Origin: an uncultured Candidatus Saccharibacteria bacterium
Lineage (GTDB): Bacteria; Patescibacteriota; Minisyncoccia; Phycocordibacterales; UBA9973
Length of the DNA: 64,000 nt
Assembly: GCA_964532495.1 (NCBI GenBank)
Contig: CAZHJZ010000002.1
Coordinates: 79,501-143,500 of the forward strand
Direction: 5' to 3'
The notes below the pieces were generated by a model. The model was given only the letters and a program-made list of their open reading frames with translations. It had not been told where the DNA came from and did not search any database. A program made the translations under genes and the position numbers. Positions 22,801 through 61,790 of this stretch are shown piece by piece. How positions within the stretch are numbered: position 1 is the stretch's first letter; the number at the start of each line of letters is the position of its first letter.

Positions 22801-25800
22801 TGATTGCCCTTAGTAACAGAATTAAATGGGCCATTATCGTAATAGAATTTTGATTCCGAAAGCTTTAGAGAAGACTGATCTTTGATAGAAATAGAAATTG
22901 GAACAATCACACCTGTAACGCCATTTCTTACATAGTCATAACTGGAATTTCGCCTATCTGTCCCTGTATCGGTAAACGTTCCGTCAGAAGCTGCAATTAC
23001 CGTTCCGAATTCCGTCTGTTCTGCCACAAATCCTGTAGAAGCATCGTACTTGTAACTTGTCGCCGTGTCCGTATGGGTAGGCAATCCGTCATATTGAAGA
23101 GTAATAGTTCGGTACAGATATACGAAATCAGCGGCTGCTGAAAGCGGTGCCGAATTCCATTGGCTGATCTCTGTCTGATACAAATTGTTAGCAAGGTTAT
23201 ATGTTTCTTTACGATATGGTTTCCCTATTTTGGATCGGCTATCAGCAAGCTCACCCAAAGCAGCATTAGTTGAGTTTCCTTGGTGATAATATGTTTTTAT
23301 TATTGCGTCAGGGCGCGTCTCTGTTACCACACCAAAGCCAGCAAACTTGCGATCGGATGGCGAAGCGTAGTAATAATATCCATCTGCATATGAGTATGAT
23401 GTTGTACTGCTGGAGCCATATCCATCATTTACTGTCACAGCTGCTACTGTGGTAACAACAAGCGGAAGTGAAGGGTTTAGTAAATTTCCTGATTGATCTT
23501 TGTACTGTGCAGAGCTTTTGTAGGTAACTCCATACGAGCCTCCGGCCGGAAGCGTAATCGTTTTTAAAAGATCATTAGGGCTTGTATTTGTATTTGGATA
23601 AATATTGTTATTCGCAACAAAATCCTGCGCTCCGTCGGCATTGATATCCATTAGTAAGTATGGATTCTGGCACAGACAGTTTACCGTTGCACTTATCGAT
23701 GATGTGAAACTTGGACTTGTGACATAGAGCGAAGCGAATCCTTTACCAGTGTTTGTGTATATTCTGTCGCCGATCACATAGATATCATCGAGGCCGTCAT
23801 TATTGAAATCGGCAATTTCAAATTTATTATATGAAGTTCCGAAATACGCATTCTGTAAAAAGTAAAAGTCTGGTGGCAATATATATGAATTATCCAATAC
23901 CCAATTTGTTCCGGTGTTAATATACACATTGTCCGTATAAACGTATTGGCAATTGCCGCAATTATTCAAGCTTCTGCTTGCTTGTATAAAGTCCGGAAGC
24001 TTATCACCATTGATATCCATCATGAAGTAATCAGATCTTCCAGAAAAAATTGGCGTGTACGCGAGAGGCACTGTTCCAGTTCCCGCGTGGCTTAACGTTG
24101 CATTGACATTGAAATTTGTTCCAGTGTTGAGAGATGTTGTTGTATTGTAATAAATCGGCAATCCGCCAGTAGAAGGATTGGTGTCTTGTAAATAGTCTAC
24201 CAACCCATCGCCGTTAAAGTCTTGGGTAAATAACGAGTACCATGGATTCGAAGTATATTTGGGGTATTGTGAGCTACTAGGTGTATACGGCACATTAGTC
24301 CAACCGGCTCCAGTGTTGATATTTTCATCAGGCATCACCGATGCGTTGTATGCGTACGGTGTTCGAAGTAGATCGGGCTTTAGGTCTCCGTTTAGGTCTA
24401 CAAGCCGAGTGCCGCCATCAAATTTACTGTTGCCGTCCGAGTAATTCATAATCCCCGCTGGAGGATTGAATGAAGCAGGACTTTGGGCAAACAGGCCTGT
24501 TGTAGGATTGAACAGCATCGTTTTTTTATCTGAAGTATATGTGTAGACAGTCCATTCATATGCCTTTAAAGCATCTGGATAGGCATCGCCGTTGATATCG
24601 CCAACAATCACTCCATTTTGCACGTCAGTTGGGAATAATCCTGGTACGGATTGGGCATTGGCGGTTTTGAATGTCTGATCAATATTGGAATTGTAGGCAA
24701 ATGCTTCAGCTGGCAAAGTGACTCCTGTTCCGTTTGCATCGTATCTCGTTTCAGTTATCGAAGAAAGCAAAGAACGCAGGCCGTTATTCCCTTGTGTATA
24801 CGAAAAAATGTATTTGCCTTTTAATATATTGTTTGCATAAATCCGAACATCGGAAATGATATAAGAAGTACGAACCAAGTATGCAGTAGCGTAGCTTTCG
24901 ATTACATCAGAGCGACTGATTCTGCTGAAAGTAATTTTATAAATGCCTGGCAATCCAGCAGCGTTTGTATACGTAATAGTATCCGGGTATATCTGCCCGT
25001 CATTTTTGTAATATGTATAGTCAATCGAATTCCCATTTGAATCCTGAGTTTTCTCAAGCATCCATTTTGAAACTTGCGCTGTATCGGCTGGATTGTCTTG
25101 GCGGGATTGTGCTGTTGTTCCATACGTATATGTAGTTCCGGCTTTATCCGTTACTGTCCATGATGTTCCTGAATATGAATACTTAAGCATCTCGCCACCA
25201 TCTGAGCGAGACATGTATGTTGACCCTGCGATATTTGCAAGCTCTCCTGAAACAGAAGAAGTAAACTCATTTTGTGAATACAATGTCTCGGTTCCTTTTT
25301 TGTTTACTCGTTCGATGTACGGAATAGTTATATTCCAACCGTACCCAACGAGCGAAGCATCCTTGCCGCTCTGTGAATTGTAATTTAAAGCAATACTGGG
25401 AGTCATCCCGTTTCTTCCTTGCGGCACAACTATGCTATGGCTGTATGAAAGTGCTCCAGTCGAAGCGTCAGTTTCGGGTTTTACTTGTTTTACTGGAGTA
25501 GGTGGATTGTCGCCATTTGAAGGATTTATCGCGAGCAAAGACTGCTGAACTTGCTGTTGTTGTACGTTTGCCAGTGGAGCAGCTTCCGGCCCCTCGGTGT
25601 GCTTTGGCTCTAAATCAGAAACTATATCTATATTTTTACTATCCAGGGTTACTATTTTTTTATCTGAAACTTCTGATGCCACTGTTTGGAGCGGTGGAGC
25701 AATAATCTGTTCTTTCGAAACTGATCCGCTGCTGCGGAGAGACTCAGCAGCCATTGGAACTTCTTGCGCATATACAGTGATGAGCGGGGCGCTCATCATG

Positions 25801-25868
25801 GTAGCGGCAAGCGAGAGTGATACGACCTTAAGCAGCGCCAAGCGCTCAAAACGTACTAATGTAATCAT
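19839..25868 (-). CDS. Rhs/YD-repeat polymorphic toxin (TcB/TcC-like: signal peptide, SpvB/FG-GAP-like N-terminal repeats, YD-repeat shell, DPTGL motif, Gly-rich C-terminal domain); the ORF is open to 25976
   Basis: Many YD repeats (YTYDVDGN, YLYDHAGNRVYY, YVYDRQGNQ, YKYDGLNR...). FG-GAP-like DxNGDGxxD repeats (DINGDAYPD, DLNGDLKPD, DFNGDGLVDY, DINGDKLPDF, FNNDGLDDIY). Rhs core end ...QDPM...SDPTGL followed by a 163-aa Gly/Ser/Thr/Asn-rich tail. Start at MITLVRF chosen because a promoter-like AT-rich segment and a terminator lie 5' of it. Confidence 0.9.
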   Translation of the reverse strand: MITLVRFERLALLKVVSLSLAATMMSAPLITVYAQEVPMAAESLRSSGSVSKEQIIAPPLQTVASEVSDKKIVTLDSKNIDIVSDLEPKHTEGPEAAPLANVQQQQVQQSLLAINPSNGDNPPTPVKQVKPETDASTGALSYSHSIVVPQGRNGMTPSIALNYNSQSGKDASLVGYGWNITIPYIERVNKKGTETLYSQNEFTSSVSGELANIAGSTYMSRSDGGEMLKYSYSGTSWTVTDKAGTTYTYGTTAQSRQDNPADTAQVSKWMLEKTQDSNGNSIDYTYYKNDGQIYPDTITYTNAAGLPGIYKITFSRISRSDVIESYATAYLVRTSYIISDVRIYANNILKGKYIFSYTQGNNGLRSLLSSITETRYDANGTGVTLPAEAFAYNSNIDQTFKTANAQSVPGLFPTDVQNGVIVGDINGDAYPDALKAYEWTVYTYTSDKKTMLFNPTTGLFAQSPASFNPPAGIMNYSDGNSKFDGGTRLVDLNGDLKPDLLRTPYAYNASVMPDENINTGAGWTNVPYTPSSSQYPKYTSNPWYSLFTQDFNGDGLVDYLQDTNPSTGGLPIYYNTTTSLNTGTNFNVNATLSHAGTGTVPLAYTPIFSGRSDYFMMDINGDKLPDFIQASRSLNNCGNCQYVYTDNVYINTGTNWVLDNSYILPPDFYFLQNAYFGTSYNKFEIADFNNDGLDDIYVIGDRIYTNTGKGFASLYVTSPSFTSSISATVNCLCQNPYLLMDINADGAQDFVANNNIYPNTNTSPNDLLKTITLPAGGSYGVTYKSSAQYKDQSGNLLNPSLPLVVTTVAAVTVNDGYGSSSTTSYSYADGYYYYASPSDRKFAGFGVVTETRPDAIIKTYYHQGNSTNAALGELADSRSKIGKPYRKETYNLANNLYQTEISQWNSAPLSAAADFVYLYRTITLQYDGLPTHTDTATSYKYDASTGFVAEQTEFGTVIAASDGTFTDTGTDRRNSSYDYVRNGVTGVIVPISISIKDQSSLKLSESKFYYDNGPFNSVTKGNQTKQEQWISGATYASKQKAYNTFGNVTSETDPLGNATSYVYDSYNLYPATVTNAILQPTNYVYDYGVGKVSSMTDANGNTWMSSYDGFGRPLTESIPDPAGGSSPVLKTAYVYTDTSNNVLKQTTQYLDASNGVEAYEYFDGLGRSIQTRKESETAGMFNTADTVYDSSGRIQKQSLPYSSGGALRTPAITIAALYSVRSYDALSRVTSEQNSIGTTTNTYAGFKTKVTDPMGKVKNYFLNAYGKLIQVDEINAGSTYTTQYLWNVAGQLVRLTDALGNIRDFTYDGRGNRLTAQDLHAVGDTSFGTWQYAYDTVGNLIILTSPEAKTTYKYDGLNRQIQENYTGATGTEIAYAYDACANGKGKLCSVTMLNGVNTVYGYDKNGTIATESRTIGTSNYFTSYVYDRQGNQSVIIYPDGASVRYTYNTAGLVDKAEAKENATAYANIVSNIDYSPTNMIATMVYANGVTTTNTYDAAELYRLNSKKTLNSSNITLQDLTYTYDVDGNITQLVDASATNGAKMANYTYDDLNRLLSATITNVAPGQSAYTQTYAYNVLGNILSKSDVGSYSYLGSTGTSFANPHAATSVNGTSVTYNRNGDMLTNGQLTNTWNYKDELVKTVKGSRFISYLYDHAGNRVYYNDKTNTTHYPNKYYNTVGSKKTKQIYVGNQLVGTIETVGTTITPYYVHTDTVLGSNVISDAAGAKNQLLDYYPFGEVRLNEQATGFNEQKQFIGQEYDADTGLNYLNARYYGGDRGQFISQDPMFLLIGSQDFNKKWDTNWRNSNKKKDQFNNQFLFEYLSNPQNLNSYSYGLNNPITMSDPTGLFAFQLGLTTNIGLGGEVGSSFNIGFASDGTFGISKSLHGGGLAGADASIGISAGYSNAKTWNDTLGTENYASLGGKVLLGGDVTTNFSGGKYSGTEVGIGMGARLGPTPIPVTFSGGVNKTTPVYQGNISGIINGMKNAVNSITSAVNQGATNVANLINKLTK

Positions 25869-25971
25869 ATGTATACACACACTACTAATAAACAAGGAAA
25901 GAAGCAATTCTAGTAATACGACATGAAAAAACGATAAAATATACATAAAATTCACTGAGACTATATATATA

Positions 25972-26003
25972 AACAAAAAAACGCCCGGACGGCGTTTTTT
26001 TTG
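25972..26003. terminator. intrinsic terminator downstream of tRNA-Ala (minus strand), AACGCC/GGCGTT stem with flanking A/T runs
   Basis: Hairpin and T8 run read directly from the sequence. Confidence 0.55.
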
Positions 26004-41929: not shown

Positions 41930-43879
41930 TTATGAATATCGCTCAAGGTCACCGGTGAGCTTTTCTACTTCGCTCTTTGATCCATAGACTAGTACGCCAA
42001 GATATTCCACTTCATCATAATTTTTTGCCGCAGTCATCTCTATCACCTTCTTGTCGTTCGTCGTTTCTATCATTTCGCGAGTGAATTCGTCTACTTCAAG
42101 TTTAGCGGCTTTGGCGTCGCGAGCAAGCGACTGGAGCGCCGTCGAAGACGGCGCGACTTTGATGATGATAGCTTGCTTAGTATTGAGCTTGATAGAAACA
42201 TTATCTTTTGACGTAATCGTGTCTTGCGTAAACAACTGCTTTCCGAGATGGGCGCCGAATGCGGCATTGAGGTGCGCAACAGTATTAAGTTCCTGCCATT
42301 TTTCAAGACCGATGCCTGAATTTAAAACCGCTACTGCGAGCATAGTTTCTTTTTTCTTTGGAGCGCCTTCTTCTTTTGGACGCATCAATGGGAAGAGCTG
42401 CGTTTCGCGAACTGGCTTATCCATCAAAAAGCTGATGAATCGTTCTGACATTCCAAAACCGAATGCCGGCGGCATGCCATACTCAAGTGCTTCGACGAAA
42501 TCCATATCTGCCATCTGCGCTTCATCATCGCCTGCATCGCGAAGAGCCTGCTGTTCCATGAATCTGCCGCGCTGATCAACTGGATCGTTAAGCTCGCTGA
42601 ATCCCTTGCCCATTTCGCTGCCCGCGAGAATAACCTGGAATCGTTCTACCGTCTTTGCGTTGTTTCGATTTCGTTTTGCCAATGGTTCAAGATATACCGG
42701 AACGTTAATCAAAAAGCCTGGGCCGCCGATAGACTTTCGAACTCGCTTCCAAAGCATATCAACTCCGCGCTGAATATTCATTTCAGAGGGCTTGTATTCA
42801 ATGTCGAATTTCTTGAAAGCGGCAATAATCTCCGCCAGCGTTTTGTCATTCGTCTCAGATGCTTCTTCGGTGACGGCAAGAGCGTCGATGCCATATTCTT
42901 GCTTGAGAATATCTACGAAGTCATACGTCTTCCATTCATCTGCAAGATCTATTTCGAATCCTTTGATGGTAAACTTTGTCGTTCCGAATACCTTCTGCCC
43001 GATCAAGCGATACAGCTCCTTGGTCATTTCCATGCCTTCCTCATAGTCAGAATATGCCATGTAATACTCGAGCTGCGTATAGTCCTGGAGATGCTCGTTC
43101 GACATTCCTTCGTTTCGGAAAATGCGTCCAATTTCGAATGTTCGAGGGATTCCAGCAACGAGCAATTTCTTCTGCCAGAGCTCTCCCGCAGAAATACGGA
43201 GGAACACATCGATGTTAAGCGCATTGTGATGAGTTGCGAACGGACGAGCATCTGCGCCGCCAGTCGTATTTTCAAGTACGGGAGTTTCAACTTCGATAAA
43301 ATTCTTTTGCAGGAGATATTCGCGGATAGTATTCCAAAAGAGTGAGCGCTTGCGAGCCATTTCAGCAAGTTCGGGATGGAGCAAAATATCCAAGTAGCGC
43401 TTTCGCAAGCGCTCATCCTCATCTTCAATGCCGAAGTATTCTGTCGGGATAGGAAGCAATGACTTTGAAGCCATTTTCCATTCTTTAGCCAAGATGCTGA
43501 ACTCACCTCGCTGAGTGGTAAACAATGTTCCAGTTATTTGGATAAAGTCCCCCATGTCAGCGCATTCGGTAAAGAGATCGAATTGAGCTGCTTCCATATC
43601 GTCCTTTTTGAAGACTGCCTGAAGCTTGTCCGTTCCATCAAAAATAACAGCGAACAAGATCGCTCCCTGTCCTCGAATAACCATTACGCGGCCCGCGATG
43701 GTAATAGTCTGTCCGGTTTCTGACAATGACGCGAATTTCTCGCGCACATCTGCAAGCGTATAGTCTCGTTCAACATGCGCGGGATAGGGTTCCATTCCTG
43801 CCTGTGTAAGTTTTGCTAATTTTTCCAAGCGGGTTGCGCGGATTTCTTCGAGTGATGCCATATGGGAGGAGTATAGCAA
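41930..43879 (-). CDS. lysS: lysine--tRNA ligase (class II) with ~145-aa C-terminal extension of unknown function
   Basis: Class II motifs (FEIGRIFRNEG, ...GFGMSERF), N-terminal OB anticodon-binding domain. Sequence after ...RPKEEGAPKKKE has no LysRS counterpart. Confidence 0.9.
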   Translation of the reverse strand: MLYSSHMASLEEIRATRLEKLAKLTQAGMEPYPAHVERDYTLADVREKFASLSETGQTITIAGRVMVIRGQGAILFAVIFDGTDKLQAVFKKDDMEAAQFDLFTECADMGDFIQITGTLFTTQRGEFSILAKEWKMASKSLLPIPTEYFGIEDEDERLRKRYLDILLHPELAEMARKRSLFWNTIREYLLQKNFIEVETPVLENTTGGADARPFATHHNALNIDVFLRISAGELWQKKLLVAGIPRTFEIGRIFRNEGMSNEHLQDYTQLEYYMAYSDYEEGMEMTKELYRLIGQKVFGTTKFTIKGFEIDLADEWKTYDFVDILKQEYGIDALAVTEEASETNDKTLAEIIAAFKKFDIEYKPSEMNIQRGVDMLWKRVRKSIGGPGFLINVPVYLEPLAKRNRNNAKTVERFQVILAGSEMGKGFSELNDPVDQRGRFMEQQALRDAGDDEAQMADMDFVEALEYGMPPAFGFGMSERFISFLMDKPVRETQLFPLMRPKEEGAPKKKETMLAVAVLNSGIGLEKWQELNTVAHLNAAFGAHLGKQLFTQDTITSKDNVSIKLNTKQAIIIKVAPSSTALQSLARDAKAAKLEVDEFTREMIETTNDKKVIEMTAAKNYDEVEYLGVLVYGSKSEVEKLTGDLERYS

Positions 43880-52045: not shown

Positions 52046-52651
52046 TTATTTCTTCTTCTTAGCTACTACTTTCTTCGCAGCAACTTTCTTTACTTCTTTC
52101 TTTGCTGGAGCAGCAGCCTTCTTGTCTGCCTTCTTTTCTTCAACTTTCTTTCCGAATGAAGGAGCTGGAACTGGAGCTGAAACTTTTTCCTTAACAGATT
52201 CTGCTGGAGCAGCTGGTCGGCCAGATGCGCGAACCATATCCATCAAGCGATCAAGCTTTGAGTTTGCCATATCGAGCTGACGAACCAAATTGTCGATACG
52301 CTTGTCTTCTCCGGCTGGAGCTGGCTTCTGATATGGAGCAGCTGGACGATCGTTAGTGAATTCACGTCGTGGAGCAAAATCTCGTCCGCCACCGCGTTCT
52401 TCACGAGGATTGTTCCCTTCTTTCATAGCACCGAAACAGTCGCTGCAGTATACTGGCTTTTCGCCATTTGGACGAAATGGAACTTCACATGTCTTTCCGC
52501 AGTTTGCGCAAGTTGCCTTGTGCATCTGAGGAGCACGGTCGCCGCCACGATCTCCGCCACGATTATCTCTGTTTTCCCATGGCTTCTTGTTAAAGCTAGG
52601 TCGTCCTCCAAATCCTCCACCACGATTTCCTCGGTCATCAAATTTTCCCAT
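52046..52651 (-). CDS. RGG-rich zinc-ribbon protein with histone-H1-like Lys/Ala/Pro-rich C-terminal tail (putative nucleic-acid-binding protein)
   Basis: N-terminal RGG/RGGD repeats, CANCGKTC...YCSDC zinc ribbon, C-terminal KKAAAPAKKEVKKVAAKK repeats. Confidence 0.6.
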   Translation of the reverse strand: MGKFDDRGNRGGGFGGRPSFNKKPWENRDNRGGDRGGDRAPQMHKATCANCGKTCEVPFRPNGEKPVYCSDCFGAMKEGNNPREERGGGRDFAPRREFTNDRPAAPYQKPAPAGEDKRIDNLVRQLDMANSKLDRLMDMVRASGRPAAPAESVKEKVSAPVPAPSFGKKVEEKKADKKAAAPAKKEVKKVAAKKVVAKKKK

Positions 52652-54823: not shown

Positions 54824-54835
54824 AGTACTCACTAA

Positions 54836-54873
54836 TAAAAAAAACCGATACCTCAGAGTATCGGTTTTTTTTA
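54836..54873. terminator. bidirectional intrinsic terminator (CCGATAC/GTATCGG, A8/T8)
   Basis: Read directly from the sequence. Confidence 0.65.
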
Positions 54874-54910: not shown

Positions 54911-55030
54911 TTATTTCTTTTTTGGTGACTTTGATTTTTCGTAGTTCCAGCAAATAGTACAGCGGCTACCGATGTATTGATGTCCACGGCTGCATGTTTT
55001 TTCTTCCGATGTTTTCTTGGCTTTGCTCAT
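54911..55030 (-). CDS. possible 39-aa Cys-containing micro-protein (MSKAKKTSEEKTCSRGHQYIGSRCTICWNYEKSKSPKKK)
   Basis: Short ORF between a terminator and the next gene; CxxGHxY...CxxC pattern. Low confidence. Confidence 0.2.
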   Translation of the reverse strand: MSKAKKTSEEKTCSRGHQYIGSRCTICWNYEKSKSPKKK

Positions 55031-55037
55031 TGAGAGA

Positions 55038-57548
55038 TTATTGCGTTGCGATATATGAGCGAGTAACTGGTCCAAAGTATCCTATTGCAGGCTGTATGCC
55101 ATGAGCTTTCTGATATGCGGCAAGCGCTGCCTGCGTCTTTCTGCCAAATCGAGTGACTTCTTTTCCAAGTGATCCATCTCCGGAAAGCGCAATCGGATAG
55201 CCATGCGTATTCAAGAATACTTGCAGACGCTGCACATCTTCGTTATCCGAACCAAGCGTCAATGATCGAGAGAATATGAATGAAGATTGTACTGGAACGG
55301 AGATTGCAGAAGTTTCAGTAGCGCATTTCTGTCCCGTAATCGGCGAGTACTGAATAGTAGCGTTGCATCCAAGTGAAATTGTGGTAAGCGGCGCAATGCT
55401 AACTGGAGCTTTTGCTGTATTAAGAGCCACAGGAACCAAGCCGCCTCCTGTTCCAGAACTTACGATCGTCTGAGGAGTTTGGCAATCAGCGCTCATTCCT
55501 CCATCGACTATTGTCCAATGATAGGTTGTAGCCAGGCTGAAACGAGCAGGTGTGGCAGCACAGTATATACTGTTGCCTCCATCAAATGGGACGTTGGATC
55601 GTACATTTTGCGCTGCCCAAGAAGTCAGCATCGAATCATAGTTCGCCTTCGAAAGGGTTACATTGGTAAACAAATCAGTCATATTAGTTACATGACTAAT
55701 ATCCCAAGTTCCTAAATTCTGATCGAAACCAGTAGCTAAGTAGAATGCACTATCTAAATTGACTAAATTATGTGTGTCCCATCCGCTGATGTCTTGGTTG
55801 AATGCTGTATCGTATGCAAACATTGCATACATGTCAGTTGCAGCGCTTACATCCCATCCGCTGATGTCTTGATTGAAGCTTGTGCCTTGAAAGGCGTTCC
55901 CAAAATAAGTTACATGACTAACATCCCAATTATCCAAAGGCTGATTGAAAAGCTCAGCACCCATAAACAAAGTTCCCATTCCAATGACACTTGAAGTGTC
56001 CCAATTATTGAGGGGCTGGTTGAAAGCGTTCGCTTCATAAAACATTCCACCCATTCCGGTAACATGTGACACATCCCATGAATTGAGCGGCTGGTTGAAT
56101 GCATTTGTGCTCATAAACATTGAAGACATATTCGTCACATTGGCAGTATTCCAGTTGCTTATGTTTTGGTTGAATACGGAAGCTCCCATAAACATGCCAT
56201 CAAAACTTGTCGCACTTGATACATCCCAGTTATTGAGCGGCTGGTTGAATGCAGCTGCACCGGTAAACATCGAATCAAATCGAGTAACATGAGAGACATC
56301 CCAAGAGTTGAGCGGCTGGTTGAATGCGGCATCAGCGTAAAACAAACCAATCATATTAGTCACATTTGAAGTGTCCCACGATGAAATGTCTCCATTGAAT
56401 GCTGTTCCTTGAAAAACCCCGATCATTGAAATGATAGATCCAGTATCCCAACCGCTCAGATCTTCGGTAGTGACTCCGCTGTCTCGAAGCATATATGTCA
56501 TATCTGTGACGCCGGAAAGGTCGGGAGCATCAGTGGCGGTAATTGCAAGATTGGTACATCCAAAAAATGCACCAGCCATATTTTCCCATGCTATCGTGCC
56601 CCATTGATCAACTGAGAGTATTTTATTTTTATCACCAGCATATGCAAACGTTATCGCTGGAAAAACACCAGAAATTGATACTGTGTATGTACCGGGCGTC
56701 ACATAGGTATGTGTAATTGCCCCTGTAACACCAGTATCTGTATTTGAATCTCCCCAATCAACATTGTAGTTATACGTAAGACCATTTGTTGTTGGAATAG
56801 TGATCTGATTGCTGCTGGATACTCCAGGATTGTCTGTTTTCCAAGTAGTAATAAATTCTGTTGCAGGAGCATCAAGGTCCGTAATTACAATCTCATCAAC
56901 ATAGTCACGATCAACTGCAGCTCCATATCCAGCTGTGTATTGAACAAGACCAGATGGGTAGGTCGCATCTGTTGCAGAACCAAGCAGCGTATAGGTAACG
57001 CCGTCATCTGAATAGTAAAAACTCAATGAAGTGCCAATTGCGGTTGCCTTAAACCAGCGCGGCTGTGATTTCGGCAAACTACCACTCCACAGCGGAGTGT
57101 ATGTTCCTGAAGAAACTCGCCATATATACACGTTGCTTGAGTCATAGACATGGAATAGATACCCCATTCGAGCACCGGCTGAGTTTGCGACACTTGTATC
57201 TGTTGCCTGAGCGCGCAGGGTAAATCCCCCACGACCGAGATCATTTGAATATGCCTGTTTCCATATTACTGATTGATCAGCTGAACCAGCAAAGTTATCA
57301 AATAATATTCCAGCAATAACGCCAGTTTGCGTAACTGCTCGCAATGAATTACCCAATGTTGGTTCATTTTGAACGTCGAAAGTTCCGGCAGTTACTGTTG
57401 TATTTGCGGGAACTTGCCCGATAGTATCAGCCTCAAAATTATATGTAGACGCAGCGTATGTATGCGACGGAATAAACAAAAAAGAAAGTACGAACAGTAA
57501 AAAAAGTATGCCGGCAAAAGATCTGCCTTTGAGATATAGAATAGTCAC
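55038..57548 (-). CDS. secreted DUF285 (BspA-like/Mycoplasma-type) repeat protein with C-terminal PG_binding_1 peptidoglycan-binding domain
   Basis: Signal peptide. ~12 tandem repeats of the FNQPLNxWDVSxVTxMxxMF type. C-terminal DVQRLQVFLNTHGY...AALAAYQKAHGIQP matches PG_binding_1. Confidence 0.75.
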   Translation of the reverse strand: MTILYLKGRSFAGILFLLFVLSFLFIPSHTYAASTYNFEADTIGQVPANTTVTAGTFDVQNEPTLGNSLRAVTQTGVIAGILFDNFAGSADQSVIWKQAYSNDLGRGGFTLRAQATDTSVANSAGARMGYLFHVYDSSNVYIWRVSSGTYTPLWSGSLPKSQPRWFKATAIGTSLSFYYSDDGVTYTLLGSATDATYPSGLVQYTAGYGAAVDRDYVDEIVITDLDAPATEFITTWKTDNPGVSSSNQITIPTTNGLTYNYNVDWGDSNTDTGVTGAITHTYVTPGTYTVSISGVFPAITFAYAGDKNKILSVDQWGTIAWENMAGAFFGCTNLAITATDAPDLSGVTDMTYMLRDSGVTTEDLSGWDTGSIISMIGVFQGTAFNGDISSWDTSNVTNMIGLFYADAAFNQPLNSWDVSHVTRFDSMFTGAAAFNQPLNNWDVSSATSFDGMFMGASVFNQNISNWNTANVTNMSSMFMSTNAFNQPLNSWDVSHVTGMGGMFYEANAFNQPLNNWDTSSVIGMGTLFMGAELFNQPLDNWDVSHVTYFGNAFQGTSFNQDISGWDVSAATDMYAMFAYDTAFNQDISGWDTHNLVNLDSAFYLATGFDQNLGTWDISHVTNMTDLFTNVTLSKANYDSMLTSWAAQNVRSNVPFDGGNSIYCAATPARFSLATTYHWTIVDGGMSADCQTPQTIVSSGTGGGLVPVALNTAKAPVSIAPLTTISLGCNATIQYSPITGQKCATETSAISVPVQSSFIFSRSLTLGSDNEDVQRLQVFLNTHGYPIALSGDGSLGKEVTRFGRKTQAALAAYQKAHGIQPAIGYFGPVTRSYIATQ

Positions 57549-57613
57549 ACAGACATCATATCAAACCCACCATCATCGAACCAGCCAAAAACAGTAAAAT
57601 CTGTGCAAAAACA

Positions 57614-60520
57614 TTACCACCAGAGTGCGGCAAGTTGCGTAGATTTCATGTGGTTGCGAGTCTTCGCGCCTAAGTAGCCAGATGCAGGAGTAATCTTGTT
57701 TTTAGTTTGATATCGAATGAGTGCTGCTTTTGTCTGTGATCCAAAATATCCCGTGATTCCTGCAGATAGAGAATACCCCTGGGCAATAAGCACAGACTGC
57801 AGTGCTTTGACATCTTCACCTGACATTCCTGACCGCAAGTCCCGTACTGGCAAGCTTGGCGTTTTTGGCGCAGAGGTTGTTTGAATGGAGGCAATAGGTG
57901 GAGTCGGGATAGATGGAGTTACAGAAGAATTAAGAAATTCTACTGGTACCATTCCCCCATTAGTTAGAGTTGGAATAACGACGGTGTCGATAGAATAATT
58001 TGCTGATGTGCCTCCGTTCATTGGAACAATTTTAGCAATATCATCGCTGCCTACATTTACTGCCCACAAATTTGTACCATCAAAGGCAAGGTCTCGTGGA
58101 TTTGATCCGACTCCTGAATATTCTGTTACAACACCAGTTGGAGTAATTTTTGAAACCGAATCCGCGCCGTAGTTCGCAGACCACATATTAGTACCGTCAA
58201 AAGCAAGGCCGTATGGACTGGATGGAGCGTCATATGTAGTTACAATGCCAGCCGGGCTGATTTTAGAAACTGTACTTGTACCCACGTTGCCCGTCCACAT
58301 GTTTGTGCCATCGAATGCGATACCGATTGGGTATGAAGTAGATGGGAGCGAATACGTTGTCATGACTCCGCTTGGTGTAATCTTGGTCACACTGCTTCCA
58401 TCAGAGTTCGCAGTCCACATGTTTGTGCCATCGAATGCAATACCCCATGGACCTGCACCAGTTCCTGTATATGTTGTTTTTGTGCCGTTCGGCGCTACTT
58501 TTGAAACACTATTATCCCCATAGTTCGATGTCCACATGTTGGTGCCATCAAATGCAATACCAAAAACATTTTGCCCTATGCTTGAATAGTTAGTAACCGC
58601 TCCGCCCAACGTCACCTTACTTACTGAATTCCCTGCGTTGTTTCCTGTCCACATGTTGGTGCCATCGAAGGCGATGCTAAACGGCTGCGCTCCTGTGCCA
58701 GTATAGTTTGTAATAACGCCAGATGGTGTGACTTTGCGAACAACATCGCCGTATCCGTTAGATACCCACATGTTTACGCCATCAAATGACACATCGGTTC
58801 CGCTTCCGCCTGTGTATTTTGTAATAGCAACTTTTGATCTAACTGAAATAGTATTATTTACAATCGCGATTGCTGCTGTCGGTGTAAATGTTGCTGTATA
58901 TACTTTTGGATCTCCAGTCACTGCTAAATTACTGATAGTTCCATTTTCAGCAGTTATATCGCCAACAGTGAAATCAGTTGGAGCAGTTGGAAATATAAAT
59001 GTAACAGTTGCCGTCTCGCCTACCCGGAGATTATTGCTCGACATTGTAACCACCGCTGATCCTACAGTGTTCCCCGCATTTGCAACAGGCAGTACGCCGT
59101 TAAACATCGCATCGATAGCAGCCTGAACCTGTCCCTGTGTAGTGGCATTACTTGCGGCAAGAATTATATTGATATTTGAAAGTTCATCGCTGGTGACGCC
59201 GGTAATTCCTGCATTGGTATAGTCGGTAAGCGTAGGTACTGTGGTTGTTCCATGACTGGAAGCGTATGCAAGTATTTTTGTAAGTGAAGCCTGCGCTGGT
59301 GTTGGAGCACTTGTGGTAACACTGATAGAAGCTATAGCATTTGCGGTCGATGGATCTTTTACTGTTGATTCAGGTACTGCGCTTATAGTGTGATTGAGGT
59401 TAGTAGTGCTTAATATATCCGCTCCCACTGTTCCACTGACCACCACAGTTACTGTTGCACCTCCAGGAATAGCTCGGTGAATTGTGCCGATATCCGCTCC
59501 AGTACCTGAAGCAGATCCGCCAGCAGTTGAAGTGAGATTCCATGTAATATTATCGATTCCAAGAGTTCCGACAGGAATTGAGTTGGTTATAGTCGTATCG
59601 GAAGAACTATTTGCGCTCAAATTGGTGACAGTATATGTGTAAGTAAATGCATCTCCTCGATGATACGTTCCGCTCGGCGGCACCGTAACTTGCGTTCGAA
59701 GATCAACAGGAAGAATTACTTCTAGGTTACCTATTGCGTGAATGTTTGTAGAGCCTCCAGTACTTGCCGCAAATCCAAGTTTCAAATTTGTAGGCGGAGC
59801 GACGTTGTATACGTAATCATTGATGACTGTGTTCCATGTTGCTCCTTCATCCCAGCTCATCTCAACGCGAATCGTTGCGTTACCAGATCCTGGCGTGACA
59901 GTTACTCGAGCTGTTCTCCATCCGCCATCAATACTCTGACCGAAAGCTGAAGATACGTTAGTATGTGTCAGGTATGGATATCCAATCAAACCATTTCCAG
60001 CACCACGAAGCACAACTGTATCTGGGGTTGTTGGGAATCCCGAATCTTCAACTGAGATATAATTTCCCCATTCATCAAATCCAACCCCGAGATACGCATG
60101 CGGTATGCCTGGAGTTCCGCCAGTAGTTTCCTGAGCATATCCTAAAGCGCCACCCGCCGCTCCTGCTGCAATATTTGTTTCGTCAACTTGGTCACCGTCC
60201 ACTAAAAAGAACGAGAGACCGTCAGCACCGTTTCCTCCTCCATCGTAATATCTAAATTGCGCCACGATACCCAGAGTCGAAGAAAAGGAGTCGTTGTAAA
60301 ATCCAAGTCCACTCTGAGCTGTGCCGGCGGATGTGAGCCGCAATGTTTGATCTCCTGAAACTGTAGTATTCCAAGCAGCACTTGATCTTAATTCCCAGTC
60401 ACCAGGCTTTGATCCGGAAAATGTTTGAGTTATCGGAAAGGTGGCCGCAAATGCTGGTGTAATAAATGTTGCAACTAATAATAAACCAAGAGCGGTGAAG
60501 CAAATTTTTTGGAATTTCAT
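57614..60520 (-). CDS. secreted L-type-lectin-like / DUF11-repeat / beta-propeller protein with C-terminal PG_binding_1 domain
   Basis: Signal peptide. Legume-lectin-like blocks ADGLSFFLV and LGVGFDEWGN. At least seven ~42-aa repeats (P.GIAFDGTNMWT.N.G..SVSKI.P.G..T.Y). C-terminal DVKALQSVLIAQGY...AALIRYQ matches PG_binding_1. Confidence 0.75.
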   Translation of the reverse strand: MKFQKICFTALGLLLVATFITPAFAATFPITQTFSGSKPGDWELRSSAAWNTTVSGDQTLRLTSAGTAQSGLGFYNDSFSSTLGIVAQFRYYDGGGNGADGLSFFLVDGDQVDETNIAAGAAGGALGYAQETTGGTPGIPHAYLGVGFDEWGNYISVEDSGFPTTPDTVVLRGAGNGLIGYPYLTHTNVSSAFGQSIDGGWRTARVTVTPGSGNATIRVEMSWDEGATWNTVINDYVYNVAPPTNLKLGFAASTGGSTNIHAIGNLEVILPVDLRTQVTVPPSGTYHRGDAFTYTYTVTNLSANSSSDTTITNSIPVGTLGIDNITWNLTSTAGGSASGTGADIGTIHRAIPGGATVTVVVSGTVGADILSTTNLNHTISAVPESTVKDPSTANAIASISVTTSAPTPAQASLTKILAYASSHGTTTVPTLTDYTNAGITGVTSDELSNINIILAASNATTQGQVQAAIDAMFNGVLPVANAGNTVGSAVVTMSSNNLRVGETATVTFIFPTAPTDFTVGDITAENGTISNLAVTGDPKVYTATFTPTAAIAIVNNTISVRSKVAITKYTGGSGTDVSFDGVNMWVSNGYGDVVRKVTPSGVITNYTGTGAQPFSIAFDGTNMWTGNNAGNSVSKVTLGGAVTNYSSIGQNVFGIAFDGTNMWTSNYGDNSVSKVAPNGTKTTYTGTGAGPWGIAFDGTNMWTANSDGSSVTKITPSGVMTTYSLPSTSYPIGIAFDGTNMWTGNVGTSTVSKISPAGIVTTYDAPSSPYGLAFDGTNMWSANYGADSVSKITPTGVVTEYSGVGSNPRDLAFDGTNLWAVNVGSDDIAKIVPMNGGTSANYSIDTVVIPTLTNGGMVPVEFLNSSVTPSIPTPPIASIQTTSAPKTPSLPVRDLRSGMSGEDVKALQSVLIAQGYSLSAGITGYFGSQTKAALIRYQTKNKITPASGYLGAKTRNHMKSTQLAALWW

Positions 60521-60599
60521 GTGCCAAAATTATAGCACGTGATATTAGAAGAAAAAAGGAAATAACTAAATTCGCGAAATAACAAGACGAAACCTAACA

Positions 60600-61280
60600 C
60601 TATATCTTTTTTCTTGGCAACATCTCATATAGTGCAATAGTCATAAAAGTATCAAGGAAATAAAAGATATACTCCCCAAGTGGAATTCCGAGAACCAGCT
60701 TGGCTGGCAGACCAGCAAGAATCCAATACTGTTCTATCCACCCAGGCTGTAAATATGATCCATATAAGTAGCCTGGGACCGAAATGAGCGTTACCAAAAT
60801 TGCAGTGATTAGGACACTCTTTACTATCTCGGGAGTTTTAGGGAAAACAAATATGCTTACAAAAAGCATTGTTGCTATCGTCGCCCAAAATGAACCAAGA
60901 TGTAGTATGTAAAAACCACCAAACATGGTAATGATACTCCCTACTGCAATAAAGATTTTGTACCATCGAGTGAGTATTGTCGTCTGTATTTGCTTGAAAT
61001 ACCTAGCAACAAAAACATACAGACTGATAATAAATCCAGTAATTACAAAACTAAAAAGCGGATCTTCAAACGGAATATTTTCCCATATGAATACAGGATT
61101 CCACCAATCCACCAGATACATATGTCGGATGAAAAGATTGAATACAGCAAAAACAATACTGATTATCAGCACGCGTTTACGCGTATTCCAATCTCGAATA
61201 GAGAAAAACGAAAGCGCGAAAAAAACAAGGAAGTATAGGCAAGAGAGGAAGTAAAGATGTTCCGCGAAGAAAGCAATCAT
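60600..61280 (-). CDS. lycopene-cyclase-domain-like polytopic membrane protein
   Basis: Two internal repeats, each with a PxE(D/E)xxF-type motif (WENIPFEDPLF; LGIPLGEYIFYF); ~7 TMs. Confidence 0.5.
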   Translation of the reverse strand: MIAFFAEHLYFLSCLYFLVFFALSFFSIRDWNTRKRVLIISIVFAVFNLFIRHMYLVDWWNPVFIWENIPFEDPLFSFVITGFIISLYVFVARYFKQIQTTILTRWYKIFIAVGSIITMFGGFYILHLGSFWATIATMLFVSIFVFPKTPEIVKSVLITAILVTLISVPGYLYGSYLQPGWIEQYWILAGLPAKLVLGIPLGEYIFYFLDTFMTIALYEMLPRKKI

Positions 61281-61286
61281 CGAATA

Positions 61287-61790
61287 TTAATTTAAGGGAA
61301 TTTCTAATATTATTTTAAATCCTGTGACTACCGGCTCGTAGTCCGGAGATGCTTCCTCAAATTCTTTTCGCTGCACAAGATATGCTTTTTCTCCTTTGGT
61401 GATTTTGAATACATATCCCAATCCCGCGTAGTAACATTGAATGTTTGCTGAACCGGCGACGCTGTCGAGTTCTGCTTCGTACAGCTCGTTGCAGCTTCCT
61501 TGAGTTGTATCGATCAGGCTTCGCTTCGTTGTTCCGTTCGAGTAACGAACACTGAGAAAAACATTGGTTTGCGGATTGCCGTCTGGATTGAGCGAATCAT
61601 CTGCTTCATAGCTCCAAGTAAATGTTGGGAGTTGAACCGATGCTGTAGGTTCGGGAATTGTTGTGGTCGGTTCAGAAACGATCGGTTCTGTGGTTTGGAA
61701 AAAAGTTTTGTACGCCAAAATGCCGAGACCGATAACAATCAAAAAAGCGAAAACGATGGCTCTCTTGATAAAAAATTCATGTACTGTCAT
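61287..61790 (-). CDS. hypothetical membrane-anchored protein
   Basis: N-terminal TM, then a Thr/Pro-rich linker and a globular domain. Confidence 0.45.
   Translation of the reverse strand: MTVHEFFIKRAIVFAFLIVIGLGILAYKTFFQTTEPIVSEPTTTIPEPTASVQLPTFTWSYEADDSLNPDGNPQTNVFLSVRYSNGTTKRSLIDTTQGSCNELYEAELDSVAGSANIQCYYAGLGYVFKITKGEKAYLVQRKEFEEASPDYEPVVTGFKIILEIPLN

What the first reader, a model, noticed from the sequence alone, without database searches (positions are those of the whole stretch)
55038..60520. Tandem pair of giant secreted repeat proteins, both ending in PG_binding_1 domains, with near-identical intragenic DNA repeats
Gene 1 (836 aa) carries ~12 DUF285/BspA-like repeats (FNQPLNxWDVSxVTxM). 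Gene 2 (968 aa) has an L-type-lectin-like N-terminal domain (ADGLSFFLV, LGVGFDEWGN), DUF11-like repeats and a 7+-bladed propeller made of ~42-aa repeats. Both end in PG_binding_1-type peptidoglycan-binding domains, so they would be non-covalently attached to the wall. This is plausibly a carbohydrate-binding adhesin pair, which fits a surface-attached/episymbiotic lifestyle. The repeats are highly similar at the DNA level (e.g. 58250-58560; 55900-56350), which provides a substrate for recombinational length or antigenic variation.
Basis: partly seen in the sequence, partly recalled or inferred. Interest (0 to 1): 0.55.

Follow-up and report, generated by a model that had tools for sequence, protein, structure and literature searches.

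The report
Two wall-tethered lectin-type surface proteins
Two neighbouring genes of an uncultured ultra-small (Patescibacteria/CPR-type) bacterium encode secreted, modular, sugar-binding-type surface proteins that probably hang on the cell wall. They are real and assembled by module shuffling, but their internal DNA repeats are old and diverged, so they are not a repeat-driven variation switch.

Summary
Both ORFs are real, on the minus strand: gene 2 at 57614-60520 (968 aa, upstream) and gene 1 at 55038-57548 (836 aa).

**Confirmed.**
- DUF285/PARCEL repeats are present in gene 1, and PG_binding_1 ends both proteins.
- Gene 2 has an L-type-lectin N-terminal domain (confident model, best fold matches are legume lectins).
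- Gene 2 also has one DUF11 domain and an exactly 7-bladed propeller related to virginiamycin B (Vgb) lyase. The propeller lacks the catalytic His.

**New.**
- Gene 1 also starts with a lectin/CBM-type beta-sandwich. Its closest fold match is CBM66, and Pfam has no model for it.
- Gene 2 is a chimera. A lectin-DUF11 module was inserted behind the signal peptide of a Big_12-propeller-PG_binding gene that stands alone in a related genome.
- Gene 1 shares a 998-nt perfectly identical tract with a genome whose other genes are about 72% identical, which points to recent recombination.

**Not confirmed.**
- The repeats are not near-identical. Units are 51-53% identical on average (maximum 71%), and the longest exact repeat is 22-26 nt.
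- Repeat number is identical among orthologues.
- The adjacency of the two genes is conserved in one related genome only.

**Verdict.** These are ordinary, independently evolving, wall-tethered glycan-binding adhesin candidates. The proteins are large, not giant. Their function is inferred, not shown.

The parts
57614..60520 (-). Gene 2, 968 aa. Order of modules: signal peptide, L-type lectin, DUF11, linker, Big_12, 7-bladed propeller, linker, PG_binding_1.
   Evidence: ORF; domains; the exact protein is present in public data as P0001.
60529..60537 (-). Extended -10-like box TGCTATAAT, 8 nt upstream of the gene 2 ATG. No Shine-Dalgarno motif is visible, so the start looks leaderless.
   Evidence: Sequence. 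The same GTGCTATAATTTTGGCACATG precedes the stand-alone propeller gene in L002. 86% DNA identity over window 60504-60570.
60446..60520 (-). Gene 2 Sec-type signal peptide MKFQKICFTALGLLLVATFITPAFA. The first codons are homologous to the L002 propeller gene.
   Evidence: Read from the sequence. No signal-peptide predictor was available.
59711..60448 (-). L-type (legume-like) lectin domain, aa 25-270.
   Evidence: Pfam PF18483 at E 5.5e-13, below the cut-off. AF2 model pLDDT 91.5. Foldseek top 50 hits are legume lectins and ERGIC-53, E about 1e-11, TM about 0.65. Alignment to peanut lectin keeps D83, D123 and N127, has Y125->W, and replaces E121 by Gly.
59306..59710 (-). Single DUF11 (Ig-like) domain, aa 271-405.
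   Evidence: Pfam PF01345 at 31 bits against a cut-off of 24.6.
59111..59305 (-). Linker of about 65 aa (..TLTDYTNAGITGVT..) shared with the lectin-DUF11 family. The 3' junction of the inserted module lies at about aa 466-471.
   Evidence: No Pfam hit. Homology to P0002-P0014 ends at aa 466. Homology to the L002 527-aa protein starts at about aa 470.
58790..59110 (-). Big_12 bacterial Ig-like domain.
   Evidence: Pfam PF19078 at E 4.6e-17.
57971..58789 (-). Seven-bladed beta-propeller of the Vgb-lyase family (FDGTNMW motif at aa 579, 618, 657, 696, 736, 774, 813). Probably non-catalytic.
   Evidence: Pfam PF24684 at 86 bits. The family profile hits Vgb lyase 2Z2N at E 9.5e-25 over residues 24-295. 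Catalytic His270 aligns to Arg in gene 2 and Ala in the family consensus. Blade spacing.
57617..57850 (-). PG_binding_1 domain of gene 2, preceded by a Pro/Thr/Ser-rich linker.
   Evidence: Pfam PF01471 at 48.5 bits. PDB sequence hits to PG-binding domains of cell-wall enzymes.
55038..57548 (-). Gene 1, 836 aa, GTG start. Order of modules: signal peptide, CBM66-like beta-sandwich, PKD-like Ig domain, about 12-13 DUF285/PARCEL repeats, cap, linker, PG_binding_1.
56865..57458 (-). N-terminal concanavalin-like (CBM66-like) beta-sandwich, aa 31-228, with no Pfam model.
   Evidence: No Pfam hit even at E<=10. 138 representative clusters among 1.84 billion proteins. AF2 pLDDT 95. Foldseek top hit is CBM66 4AZZ at E 8e-11, TMt 0.78, followed by ERGIC-53 and legume lectins. 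Relatives also carry SASA esterase, Lectin_C, Big_5 and PG_binding_1.
56649..56864 (-). PKD-like Ig domain (..TEFITTWKTDNPG..YNYNVDWGD..), the usual prefix of BspA-type DUF285 proteins.
   Evidence: PKD_4 at 24.5 bits, below the cut-off of 27. Conserved in 119 retrieved homologues and in metagenome hits.
55629..56648 (-). DUF285/PARCEL 25-aa repeat solenoid: 9 canonical units (FNQPLNxWDVSxVTxMxxMF) plus degenerate flanking units.
   Evidence: PF03382 at E 1.4e-100; TIGR02167 at 111 bits. Register.
55254..55628 (-). C-terminal cap of the DUF285 array (aa 641-700, shared with 84 homologues) and a divergent linker.
   Evidence: Only 37% identical to the orthologue that is 94-100% identical further upstream.
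55041..55253 (-). PG_binding_1 domain of gene 1.
   Evidence: PF01471 at 30.1 bits. 41% identical to the gene 2 copy. 63% identical to the PG_binding_1 domains of propeller-family proteins.
56044..57041 (-). 998-nt tract of gene 1 that is 100% identical to contig CAYVDC010000005.1. This is a recombination or transfer footprint.
   Evidence: Other shared genes are 70-76% identical at the DNA level.
54911..55030 (-). Conserved 39-aa Cys-rich basic small ORF, 7 nt downstream of gene 1. Probably co-transcribed.
   Evidence: The same ORF follows the gene 1 orthologues in L002 and L003.
54835..54870 (-). Intrinsic-terminator-like hairpin (CCGATAC...GTATCGG) with flanking A and T runs, between convergent genes.
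   Evidence: Sequence. Equivalent hairpins are seen in L002 and L003.

Best explanation
These are two separately evolving, Sec-exported, modular surface proteins of a peptidoglycan-bearing Patescibacteria (CPR)-type bacterium. Each is built the same way.

- At the N-terminus sits a concanavalin-like sugar-binding module: an L-type lectin in gene 2 and a CBM66-like domain in gene 1.
- Next come Ig-like spacers: DUF11 and Big_12 in gene 2, a PKD-like domain in gene 1.
- Then comes a rigid repeat scaffold that offers a second binding surface. In gene 2 it is a non-catalytic 7-bladed propeller related to Vgb lyase. In gene 1 it is a DUF285/PARCEL solenoid.
- A flexible linker and a C-terminal PG_binding_1 domain finish each protein.

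The likely mechanism is as follows. After export, PG_binding_1 holds the protein non-covalently on the cell's own wall, and the N-terminal modules project outward. There they bind glycans on another cell or on a polymer, that is, short-range adhesion or host recognition.

Diversity comes from exchanging whole modules and tracts between genes and lineages, not from slippage of the internal repeats.

**Shown:** ORFs, domain identities, folds, chimerism, mosaic identity.
**Inferred:** export, wall tethering, glycan binding, role in adhesion.
For: - **Domains and folds.**
- **Lectin sugar-contact residues.** They align with peanut lectin.
- **Gene 1 N-domain relatives.** They are fused to SASA carbohydrate esterases, C-type lectin, Ig domains and PG_binding_1, which is how carbohydrate-binding modules behave.
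- **Propeller.** It is homologous to Vgb lyase, but the residue mutated in the inactive variant (H270A, 2Z2P) is Arg or Ala here. Vgb's Mg and substrate site is in blades 6-7 (PMC8916777).
- **Propeller on pilins.** Close propeller relatives (44-55% identity) are borne on prepilin-type proteins (PF07963). In Saccharibacteria an L-lectin-like and a heptabladed-propeller minor pilin are candidate glycan-binding host adhesins, and loss of the latter halves host binding (PMC11623550).
- **Wall anchoring.**
  - PG_binding_1 is the recurrent C-terminal module of many CPR-labelled multidomain proteins.
  - The window encodes two PBPs and a MurA-type enzyme.
  - PGB1 is listed among non-covalent wall-binding domains (PMC5817068).
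- **Chimerism of gene 2.**
  - aa 1-466 are 74% identical to the 703-aa lectin-DUF11 protein P0002.
  - aa 470-968 are 61% identical to a full-length 527-aa Big_12-propeller-PG_binding protein. That protein has the same promoter and start region.
- **Mosaic gene 1.** A 998-nt identical tract against about 72% background identity.
Against: - No binding, localisation or expression data exist for these proteins or any close relative.
- The lectin hit is below Pfam's curated cut-off, and the Mn-ligand Glu of legume lectins is Gly here.
- The CBM66 match is fold-level only (17% identity). There is no significant sequence or profile link to any solved CBM or lectin.
- PG_binding_1 is best known from cell-wall enzymes and is itself poorly characterised as an anchor. 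It could bind a partner cell's wall instead of the cell's own.
- Taxonomy rests on labels of related MAGs only.
- Signal peptides were judged by eye.
Confidence: 0.68

Rival explanations
1. One reading: a contingency locus. The intragenic repeats recombine or slip, changing repeat number or antigenic type of an adhesin pair.
For: Both genes contain tandem protein repeats. DUF285/PARCEL genes are known for variable repeat number and horizontal spread (PMC2996958). Gene 1 does show recombination between lineages.
Against: - Repeat units are only 51-53% identical at the DNA level, with a maximum of 71%.
- The longest exact repeats are 22-26 nt.
- TRF finds one weak 1.9-copy array.
- The DUF285 region aligns without a single gap among three orthologues, and both propellers have 7 blades.
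- A closed propeller cannot easily change blade number.
Confidence: 0.07
2. Secreted enzymes rather than adhesins. PG_binding_1 targets the proteins to peptidoglycan (the cell's own or a host's), and the propeller or the beta-sandwich carries a catalytic activity (lyase, lactonase or glycan-modifying).
For: PG_binding_1 is typical of cell-wall hydrolases (PDB hits). The propeller is homologous to Vgb lyase and streptogramin lactonase. Relatives of the gene 1 N-domain are attached to SASA esterases.
Against: - No catalytic domain is detected in either protein.
- Vgb catalytic His270 is not conserved. By my recollection of Korczynska 2007, His228, Glu268 and Glu284 align to Tyr, Asn and Gly.
- In the esterase relatives the domain accompanies a separate catalytic domain, as a CBM does.
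Confidence: 0.12
3. A functional two-gene system: the two proteins act together (co-transcribed, forming one complex on the wall), so the adjacency itself matters.
For: They are on the same strand, 65 nt apart, with no convincing terminator between them. The same order (propeller gene then DUF285 gene) occurs in contig CAYVDC010000005.1. Elevated DNA similarity spans the end of gene 2, the spacer and gene 1.
Against: The gene 1 orthologue in L003 has no propeller neighbour. None of the other 75 propeller loci has a DUF285 gene within the flanks. The lectin-DUF11 relatives have other neighbours. The two PG_binding_1 domains are only about 40% identical.
Confidence: 0.1
4. The 998-nt identical tract is a metagenome assembly artefact (consensus collapse of two co-occurring populations), not biology.
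For: All sequences are MAG or Logan assemblies. The Logan contig for this genome breaks 204 nt into gene 1. That fits several alleles being present in the sample.
Against: - The contigs come from different accessions: SRR12404947, SRP170004 and SRR14800548.
- The flanks of the tract are also far more similar (78-96%) than the genomic background of 70-76%.
- A third genome shows its own 97-99% block at nt 801-1000.
- Both contigs are collinear on both sides.
Confidence: 0.2

Closest known systems
Gram-positive surface proteins with an N-terminal L-type lectin module: YwfG of Lactococcus lactis (PMC9815576) and, from my own knowledge, SraP of Staphylococcus aureus
   Same: Secreted multidomain wall-associated protein. 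An N-terminal L-type lectin domain is followed by Ig-like or repeat stalk domains. In YwfG the lectin domain binds alpha-1,2-mannose and mediates cell-cell aggregation.
   Different: YwfG is covalently anchored through LPXTG and sortase, whereas gene 2 ends in PG_binding_1. The stalk modules differ (DUF11, Big_12 and a propeller here). No sugar specificity is known here, and the Mn-ligand Glu is missing.
Saccharibacteria type IV pilus minor pilins PilX1 (L-lectin-like jelly roll) and PilX2 (heptabladed propeller) (PMC11623550)
   Same: CPR bacteria display an L-lectin-like fold and a 7-bladed propeller as candidate glycan-binding host adhesins. Relatives of the gene 2 propeller also occur on prepilin-type proteins.
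   Different: Gene 2 has a Sec signal peptide and no prepilin (N_methyl) domain. It joins both module types in one polypeptide and is wall-tethered rather than carried at a pilus tip. Homology to PilX1 or PilX2 themselves was not tested.
DUF285 / PARCEL / 'BspA family leucine-rich repeat surface protein' (PF03382, TIGR02167; PMC2996958)
   Same: Tandem 25-residue amphipathic repeat, surface targeting, a PKD-like prefix and a conserved C-terminal cap as in thousands of Bacteroidota and Mollicutes proteins, and signs of horizontal exchange.
   Different: Most relatives end in a T9SS sorting domain or are lipoproteins, whereas this one ends in PG_binding_1 and begins with a CBM66-like domain. That architecture is seen in only two close relatives. 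No dyad symmetry was detected in the coding DNA.
Virginiamycin B lyase (Vgb; PDB 2Z2N, 2Z2P)
   Same: Homologous 7-bladed propeller (profile E 9.5e-25, aligned over nearly the whole enzyme).
   Different: Catalytic His270 is not conserved. The propeller is embedded in a secreted multidomain protein. It most likely serves as a binding scaffold.
CBM66 (Bacillus subtilis levanase SacC module; PDB 4AZZ, 4B1M)
   Same: Best structural match of the gene 1 N-terminal domain (TMt 0.78, rmsd 3.0 Å). Both occur appended to carbohydrate-active enzymes.
   Different: 17% identity and no sequence-level relationship. Ligand-binding residues were not compared. This domain is larger (198 aa against about 165 aa).

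Membership tests
L-type lectin domain (Pfam PF18483 Lectin_L-type_dom) | Sequence match to the family HMM at or above the curated cut-off | tested here: not met
   49.7 bits against a cut-off of 78.3, although E is 5.5e-13 over profile positions 10-211 of 215. Many homologues carry a precomputed PF18483 hit.
L-type lectin domain (Pfam PF18483 Lectin_L-type_dom) | Legume-lectin beta-sandwich fold | tested here: met
   Model pLDDT 91.5. The top 50 Foldseek PDB hits are all legume lectins or ERGIC-53, E 8e-12 to 2e-10, TM 0.60-0.67.
L-type lectin domain (Pfam PF18483 Lectin_L-type_dom) | Conserved sugar and metal site (peanut lectin Asp83, Gly104, Tyr125, Asn127; metal ligands Glu121, Asp123) | tested here: inconclusive
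   HMMER alignment to peanut lectin keeps Asp83 (in GADG), Asp123 and Asn127, and has Tyr125->Trp/Phe. Gly104 aligns to Ala/Ser and Glu121 to Gly. The residue roles come from my knowledge of legume lectins.
L-type lectin domain (Pfam PF18483 Lectin_L-type_dom) | Demonstrated carbohydrate binding | not testable with these tools
   Needs glycan array or ITC.
DUF285 / PARCEL repeat surface protein (PF03382, TIGR02167) | HMM match above cut-off and tandem 25-residue units | tested here: met
   331.9 bits against 25; TIGR02167 at 111.5 bits against 30. 25-aa register.
DUF285 / PARCEL repeat surface protein (PF03382, TIGR02167) | Dyad symmetry (palindromy) of the repeat-coding DNA (PMC2996958) | tested here: not met
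   No inverted repeat of at least 14 nt within 120 nt in 55600-56700. The paper's own palindrome method was not reproduced.
DUF285 / PARCEL repeat surface protein (PF03382, TIGR02167) | Membrane or surface targeting signal | tested here: inconclusive
   Sec-type N-terminus visible in the sequence. No predictor was run.
PG_binding_1 wall-binding module (PF01471) | HMM match above cut-off | tested here: met
   Gene 1 at 30.1 bits, gene 2 at 48.5 bits, cut-off 23.
PG_binding_1 wall-binding module (PF01471) | The organism makes peptidoglycan | tested here: met
   Two PBP transpeptidases and a MurA-type enzyme in the window. PBP, FemAB and Mur ligase in related contigs.
PG_binding_1 wall-binding module (PF01471) | Binding to peptidoglycan and retention on the cell's own wall | not testable with these tools
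   Needs sacculus pull-down or fractionation.
Virginiamycin B lyase family (PF24684) | HMM match and seven-bladed propeller | tested here: met
   86 bits against 50 for the isolated domain. Seven FDGTNMW blades. Profile hit to 2Z2N at E 9.5e-25.
Virginiamycin B lyase family (PF24684) | Catalytic and Mg-binding residues in blades 6-7 (His270 and others) | tested here: not met
   His270 (Ala in the inactive variant 2Z2P) aligns to Arg in gene 2 and Ala in the family consensus. Site location from PMC8916777.
CBM66 | Fold similarity | tested here: met
   4AZZ at E 7.9e-11, TMt 0.78, rmsd 3.0 Å.
CBM66 | Sequence-family membership | tested here: not met
   No Pfam hit at E<=10. The profile against PDB gives only E of about 0.1 to GH43 C-terminal domains.
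Repeat-driven contingency (phase- or length-variable) surface gene | Long, near-identical tandem DNA repeats | tested here: not met
Repeat-driven contingency (phase- or length-variable) surface gene | Repeat-number differences among close relatives | tested here: not met
   Gap-free alignment of the repeat regions among orthologues. Read-level heterogeneity was not testable.
Type IV pilus minor-pilin adhesin (PilX-like) | Prepilin N-terminal methylation/cleavage domain | tested here: not met
   No PF07963 hit in gene 2. Some propeller relatives do have it.

The most novel reading that the evidence does not exclude
Diverged CPR lineages (about 72% DNA identity) actively trade adhesin modules. 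One sign is the 998-nt perfectly identical tract in gene 1. Another is the in-frame insertion of a lectin-DUF11 cassette behind the signal peptide of a propeller gene. Both would be snapshots of a shared 'adhesin mobilome' that lets ultra-small episymbionts re-tool host recognition. Gene 2 would then unite, in one wall-tethered protein, the two module types (L-lectin and heptabladed propeller) that Saccharibacteria deploy on separate pili. It would act as the proposed close-range adhesin of a two-step attachment.
Probability: 0.2. Interest if true: 0.6.

Novelty: new member of a known kind. Interest (0 to 1): 0.33.

Why it matters
- **Host attachment in CPR bacteria.** How CPR/Patescibacteria recognise and hold on to host cells is largely unknown beyond type IV pili. 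These two genes are concrete candidates for wall-tethered, glycan-binding adhesins.
- **A recurrent tail.** PG_binding_1 is a common C-terminal tail of such proteins in this group.
- **A domain family without a Pfam model.** It is CBM66-like, with 138 representative clusters, and is often attached to sialate-type esterases.
- **A worked example of adhesin evolution.** The locus shows evolution by module insertion and by tract exchange between lineages.
- **Limits.** None of this is unexpected for bacterial surface proteins, and no function has been demonstrated.

Tried and rejected
- **Full-length Pfam scan of gene 2.** It missed the lectin, DUF11 and propeller domains. They appeared only when the domains were scanned separately.
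- **Is the gene 1 N-domain a distant L-type lectin?** Profile-profile comparison with the gene 2 lectin family gave no support (hhalign probability 0.2%). The profile against PDB sequences gave nothing significant.
- **Inverted-repeat search for PARCEL palindromy.** Nothing found.
- **Search for the gene 1 N-terminal region in other collections.** JGI metagenome contigs and viral contigs returned only PKD-prefix matches from unrelated DUF285 proteins. There were no close relatives and no phage link.
- **Literature check of Vgb catalytic residue numbers.** It found only the general site location.
- **Ideas rejected.** A genomic island (GC is flat at 0.43-0.45), a repeat-slippage switch, and a conserved two-gene system.


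Full report
**1. Observation**

Both begin with sequences that read as Sec signal peptides: MKFQKICFTALGLLLVATFITPAFA|ATFP and ...FLFIPSHTYA|AST. This was judged from the sequence, as no predictor was available. GC content is flat across the region.

**2. Domains of gene 1**

| Region (aa) | Assignment | Evidence |
|---|---|---|
| about 301-640 | DUF285/PARCEL repeats | Pfam E 1.4e-100; NCBIfam PARCEL repeat 111 bits |
| 229-300 | PKD-like, sub-threshold | 24.5 bits against a cut-off of 27 |
| 766-836 | PG_binding_1 | 30.1 bits against a cut-off of 23 |
| 641-700 | C-terminal cap of DUF285 arrays | shared with 84 retrieved homologues |
| 31-228 | CBM66-like beta-sandwich | see below |

- In a 25-aa register there are 9 canonical units (FNQPLNxWDVSxVTxMxxMF) plus about 4 degenerate ones.
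- The first 200 mature residues (aa 31-228) have no Pfam hit even at E<=10.
- An exhaustive search of 1.84 billion representative proteins found only 138 related clusters for this domain.
- An alignment of these relatives gave a very confident AlphaFold model (pLDDT 95, all-beta).
- The best PDB match of that model is the carbohydrate-binding module CBM66 (4AZZ, E 8e-11, TMt 0.78). Next come the lectin domains of galactocerebrosidase, ERGIC-53/VIP36 and legume lectins.
- In other proteins the domain accompanies SASA carbohydrate esterases, C-type lectin, Ig-like domains and, again, C-terminal PG_binding_1. That is how a carbohydrate-binding module behaves.
- At the sequence and profile level it is not detectably related to the gene 2 lectin or to any solved structure.

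**3. Domains of gene 2**

The full-length scan reported only Big_12 and PG_binding_1 (48.5 bits). Scanned by segment, it shows:

| Region (aa) | Assignment | Score |
|---|---|---|
| 25-270 | Lectin_L-type_dom | E 5.5e-13; 49.7 bits, below the cut-off of 78.3 |
| 271-405 | DUF11, one copy | 31 bits against 24.6 |
| 406-470 | linker, no Pfam hit | - |
| 471-577 | Big_12 | E 4.6e-17 |
| 578-850 | Vgb_lyase-family propeller | 86 bits against 50 |

*Lectin domain.* The model is confident (pLDDT 91.5), and its top 50 PDB matches are legume lectins and ERGIC-53 (E about 1e-11, TM about 0.65). A profile alignment to peanut lectin gives:
- The sugar-binding Asp83 (in GADG), Asp123 and Asn127 are kept.
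- Tyr125 becomes Trp or Phe.
- Gly104 becomes Ala or Ser.
- The Mn-ligand Glu121 becomes Gly.

The residue roles come from my knowledge of legume lectins. A working, possibly Ca-only, sugar site is therefore plausible but unproven.

*Propeller.* It has exactly seven FDGTNMW blades spaced 38-40 aa apart.
- The family profile hits S. aureus virginiamycin B lyase at E 9.5e-25 over residues 24-295 of 299.
- His270, the residue replaced by Ala in the inactive variant 2Z2P, aligns to Arg in gene 2 and Ala in the family consensus.
- Vgb's Mg and substrate site lies in blades 6-7 (PMC8916777).
- By my recollection of the Vgb papers, His228, Glu268 and Glu284 align to Tyr, Asn and Gly.
- The propeller is therefore most likely a binding scaffold, not a lyase.

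**4. The DNA repeats**

The claim of near-identical intragenic repeats fails.
- TRF finds one weak array (56189-56327, 1.9 copies, 75% matches).
- Repeat families are 60-88% identical over 32-115 nt.
- Mean pairwise nucleotide identity is 53% for DUF285 units (maximum 71%) and 51% for blades (maximum 62%).
- The longest exact repeats are 22 nt and 26 nt.
- The repeat regions of three gene 1 orthologues align without a gap. The length differences lie in the C-terminal linker. Both available propellers have seven blades.
- There is thus no evidence for repeat-number variation and little substrate for it. Read-level heterogeneity could not be tested.

**5. What does vary: modules and tracts**

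*Gene 2 is a chimera.*
- Residues 1-466 are 74% identical to the N-terminal two thirds of P0002. P0002 is a 703-aa lectin-DUF11-linker-...-PG_binding_1 protein from a family of about 14 such proteins.
- Residues 470-968 are 61% identical to an entire 527-aa Big_12-propeller-PG_binding_1 protein. That protein has its own signal peptide and is encoded on contig CAYVDC010000005.1.
- The promoter and start region is the propeller gene's. GTGCTATAATTTTGGCACATGAAAT is shared, with 86% identity over window 60504-60570.
- So about 445 codons of a lectin-DUF11 cassette were inserted in frame just behind the signal-peptide start of an ancestral propeller gene.
- No other fusion of this kind appeared among 77 propeller loci.

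*Gene 1 is a mosaic.*
- Against its orthologue on the same contig, gene nt 508-1505 (window 56044-57041) are 100% identical over 998 nt. The 5' flank is 78-96% identical, the 3' part falls to 45-70%, and the C-terminal linker is only 37% identical at the protein level.
- The other shared genes of the two collinear contigs (PBP, ABC ATPase, a 226-aa membrane protein, a glyoxalase-family protein, the propeller) are 70-76% identical in DNA.
- A third orthologue (L003) has its own 97-99% block at nt 801-1000.
- This is a signature of recent recombination or transfer between diverged lineages. It agrees with the horizontal mobility described for PARCEL genes (PMC2996958).
- Assembly collapse cannot be fully excluded for the perfect stretch, but the contigs come from different accessions and the flanks are also unusually similar.

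**6. Is it a pair?**

- The propeller-then-DUF285 order recurs only on CAYVDC010000005.1.
- The 74%-identical gene 1 orthologue in L003 has a cation ATPase upstream.
- None of the other 75 propeller loci has a DUF285 gene in its flanks.
- Lectin-DUF11 relatives sit in other contexts.
- The two PG_binding_1 domains are only about 40% identical. Each resembles the tails of other CPR surface proteins as much as its own orthologue's tail.
- The adjacency is therefore lineage-specific, not a conserved system.

**7. Organism and wall**

- Named relatives of the propeller module are labelled Candidatus Paceibacterota/Pacebacteria, Taylor-, Nomura-, Yonath- and Kaiserbacteria, 'Patescibacteria group'. 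The closest contig is labelled 'uncultured Candidatus Saccharibacteria'.
- The window's own genome name could not be recovered.
- The window encodes two PBP transpeptidases and a MurA-type enzyme, so a peptidoglycan wall is available for PG_binding_1.
- That domain is listed among putative non-covalent wall-anchoring domains, with the caveat that it needs characterisation (PMC5817068).

**8. Mechanism proposed**

The proteins would be exported by Sec. The C-terminal PG_binding_1 would hold them non-covalently on the wall. Ig-like spacers and a rigid repeat scaffold would push an N-terminal glycan-binding module outward to bind glycans on a partner cell or a polymer.

Supporting parallels:
- YwfG of Lactococcus has an N-terminal L-type lectin that binds alpha-1,2-mannose and aggregates yeast (PMC9815576).
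- TM7x minor pilins PilX1 (L-lectin-like) and PilX2 (heptabladed propeller) are candidate glycan-binding adhesins. Deleting PilX2 roughly halves host binding (PMC11623550).
- Propellers 44-55% identical to the gene 2 propeller are carried by prepilin-type proteins.
- Large surface proteins with concanavalin-type domains have been proposed as host-recognition candidates in another patescibacterium (PMC13059738).

All functional steps are inferred. Only the sequence anatomy, folds and evolutionary mosaicism are shown.

**9. Rivals**

- Repeat-driven variation is largely refuted.
- An enzymatic role is unlikely, because no catalytic domain is present and the Vgb His is lost.
- An obligate two-gene system is not supported by synteny.
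- PG_binding_1 might target a host's wall rather than the cell's own. This cannot be distinguished here.

**10. Verdict**

This is a correct domain-level observation with an over-stated repeat claim. The locus is an ordinary but well-resolved example of modular, wall-tethered, lectin-type surface proteins in a CPR-type genome. Three modest additions came out of the work:
- a CBM66-like domain family with no Pfam model;
- a clear module-insertion chimera;
- a strong recombination footprint between lineages.

Noticed in passing
window 54911-55030 (-): A 39-aa basic, Cys-rich ORF (MSKAKKTSEEKTCSRGHQYIGSRCTICWNYEKSKSPKKK) starts 7 nt after the gene 1 stop and precedes a terminator-like hairpin. 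The same ORF, about 80% identical in protein despite about 70-74% DNA identity, follows the gene 1 orthologues in L002 and L003. It is probably a real, co-transcribed small gene of unknown role.
   Followed up: partly
window 60521-60537 (-); L002 about 5336-5356; L004 about 7983-8003: An extended -10-like box (TGCTATAAT) lies 8 nt upstream of the gene 2 ATG, with no Shine-Dalgarno motif. It is identical upstream of the stand-alone propeller gene in L002, and a similar TGATATAAT precedes the lectin gene in L004. This suggests leaderless or near-leaderless transcripts.
   Followed up: partly
window 19839-25976 (-): A 2045-aa protein with SpvB, FG-GAP, DUF6443 and RHS-repeat hits. This is a Tc/RHS-type polymorphic-toxin-like giant protein in the same small-genome context. 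Its C-terminal tip and any immunity gene were not examined.
   Followed up: no
window 9659-11185 (+) and 41930-43879 (-): Two unusual fusions by Pfam: an HTH_3 (XRE-type) domain fused to an EPSP_synthase/MurA-type enzyme, and a class II aminoacyl-tRNA synthetase fused to a C-terminal DUF2000.
   Followed up: no
L001 (Logan SRR12404947_166309), locus end at 5213: The independent Logan assembly of the same sample reproduces gene 2 exactly but breaks 204 nt into gene 1. Gene 1 is not indexed as a complete gene there. This would fit allelic heterogeneity of gene 1 in that sample.
   Followed up: no
window 60600-61790 (-); L002 3609-4289; L004 7409-7912: The neighbours upstream of gene 2 mirror its two parents. 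The 226-aa membrane protein is 72% identical to one that lies near the propeller gene in L002. The 167-aa protein is 37% identical to the gene immediately upstream of the lectin-DUF11 gene in L004. This hints that the fusion arose by a rearrangement joining two neighbourhoods.
   Followed up: partly
window 52046-52651 (-): A 201-aa protein with Gly/Arg-rich N-terminal repeats, a CxxC...CxxC motif and a Lys/Ala-rich tail, read by eye. L004 has a 209-aa zf_Tbcl_2 protein in its neighbourhood. Homology between the two was not tested.
   Followed up: no
proteins P0267, P0279, P0284, P0310, P0316, P0317, P0323, P0336: Propellers 44-55% identical to the gene 2 propeller are attached to prepilin-type N-terminal methylation domains (PF07963). 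The same module is therefore displayed either on pilins or on PG_binding_1-tailed proteins.
   Followed up: partly
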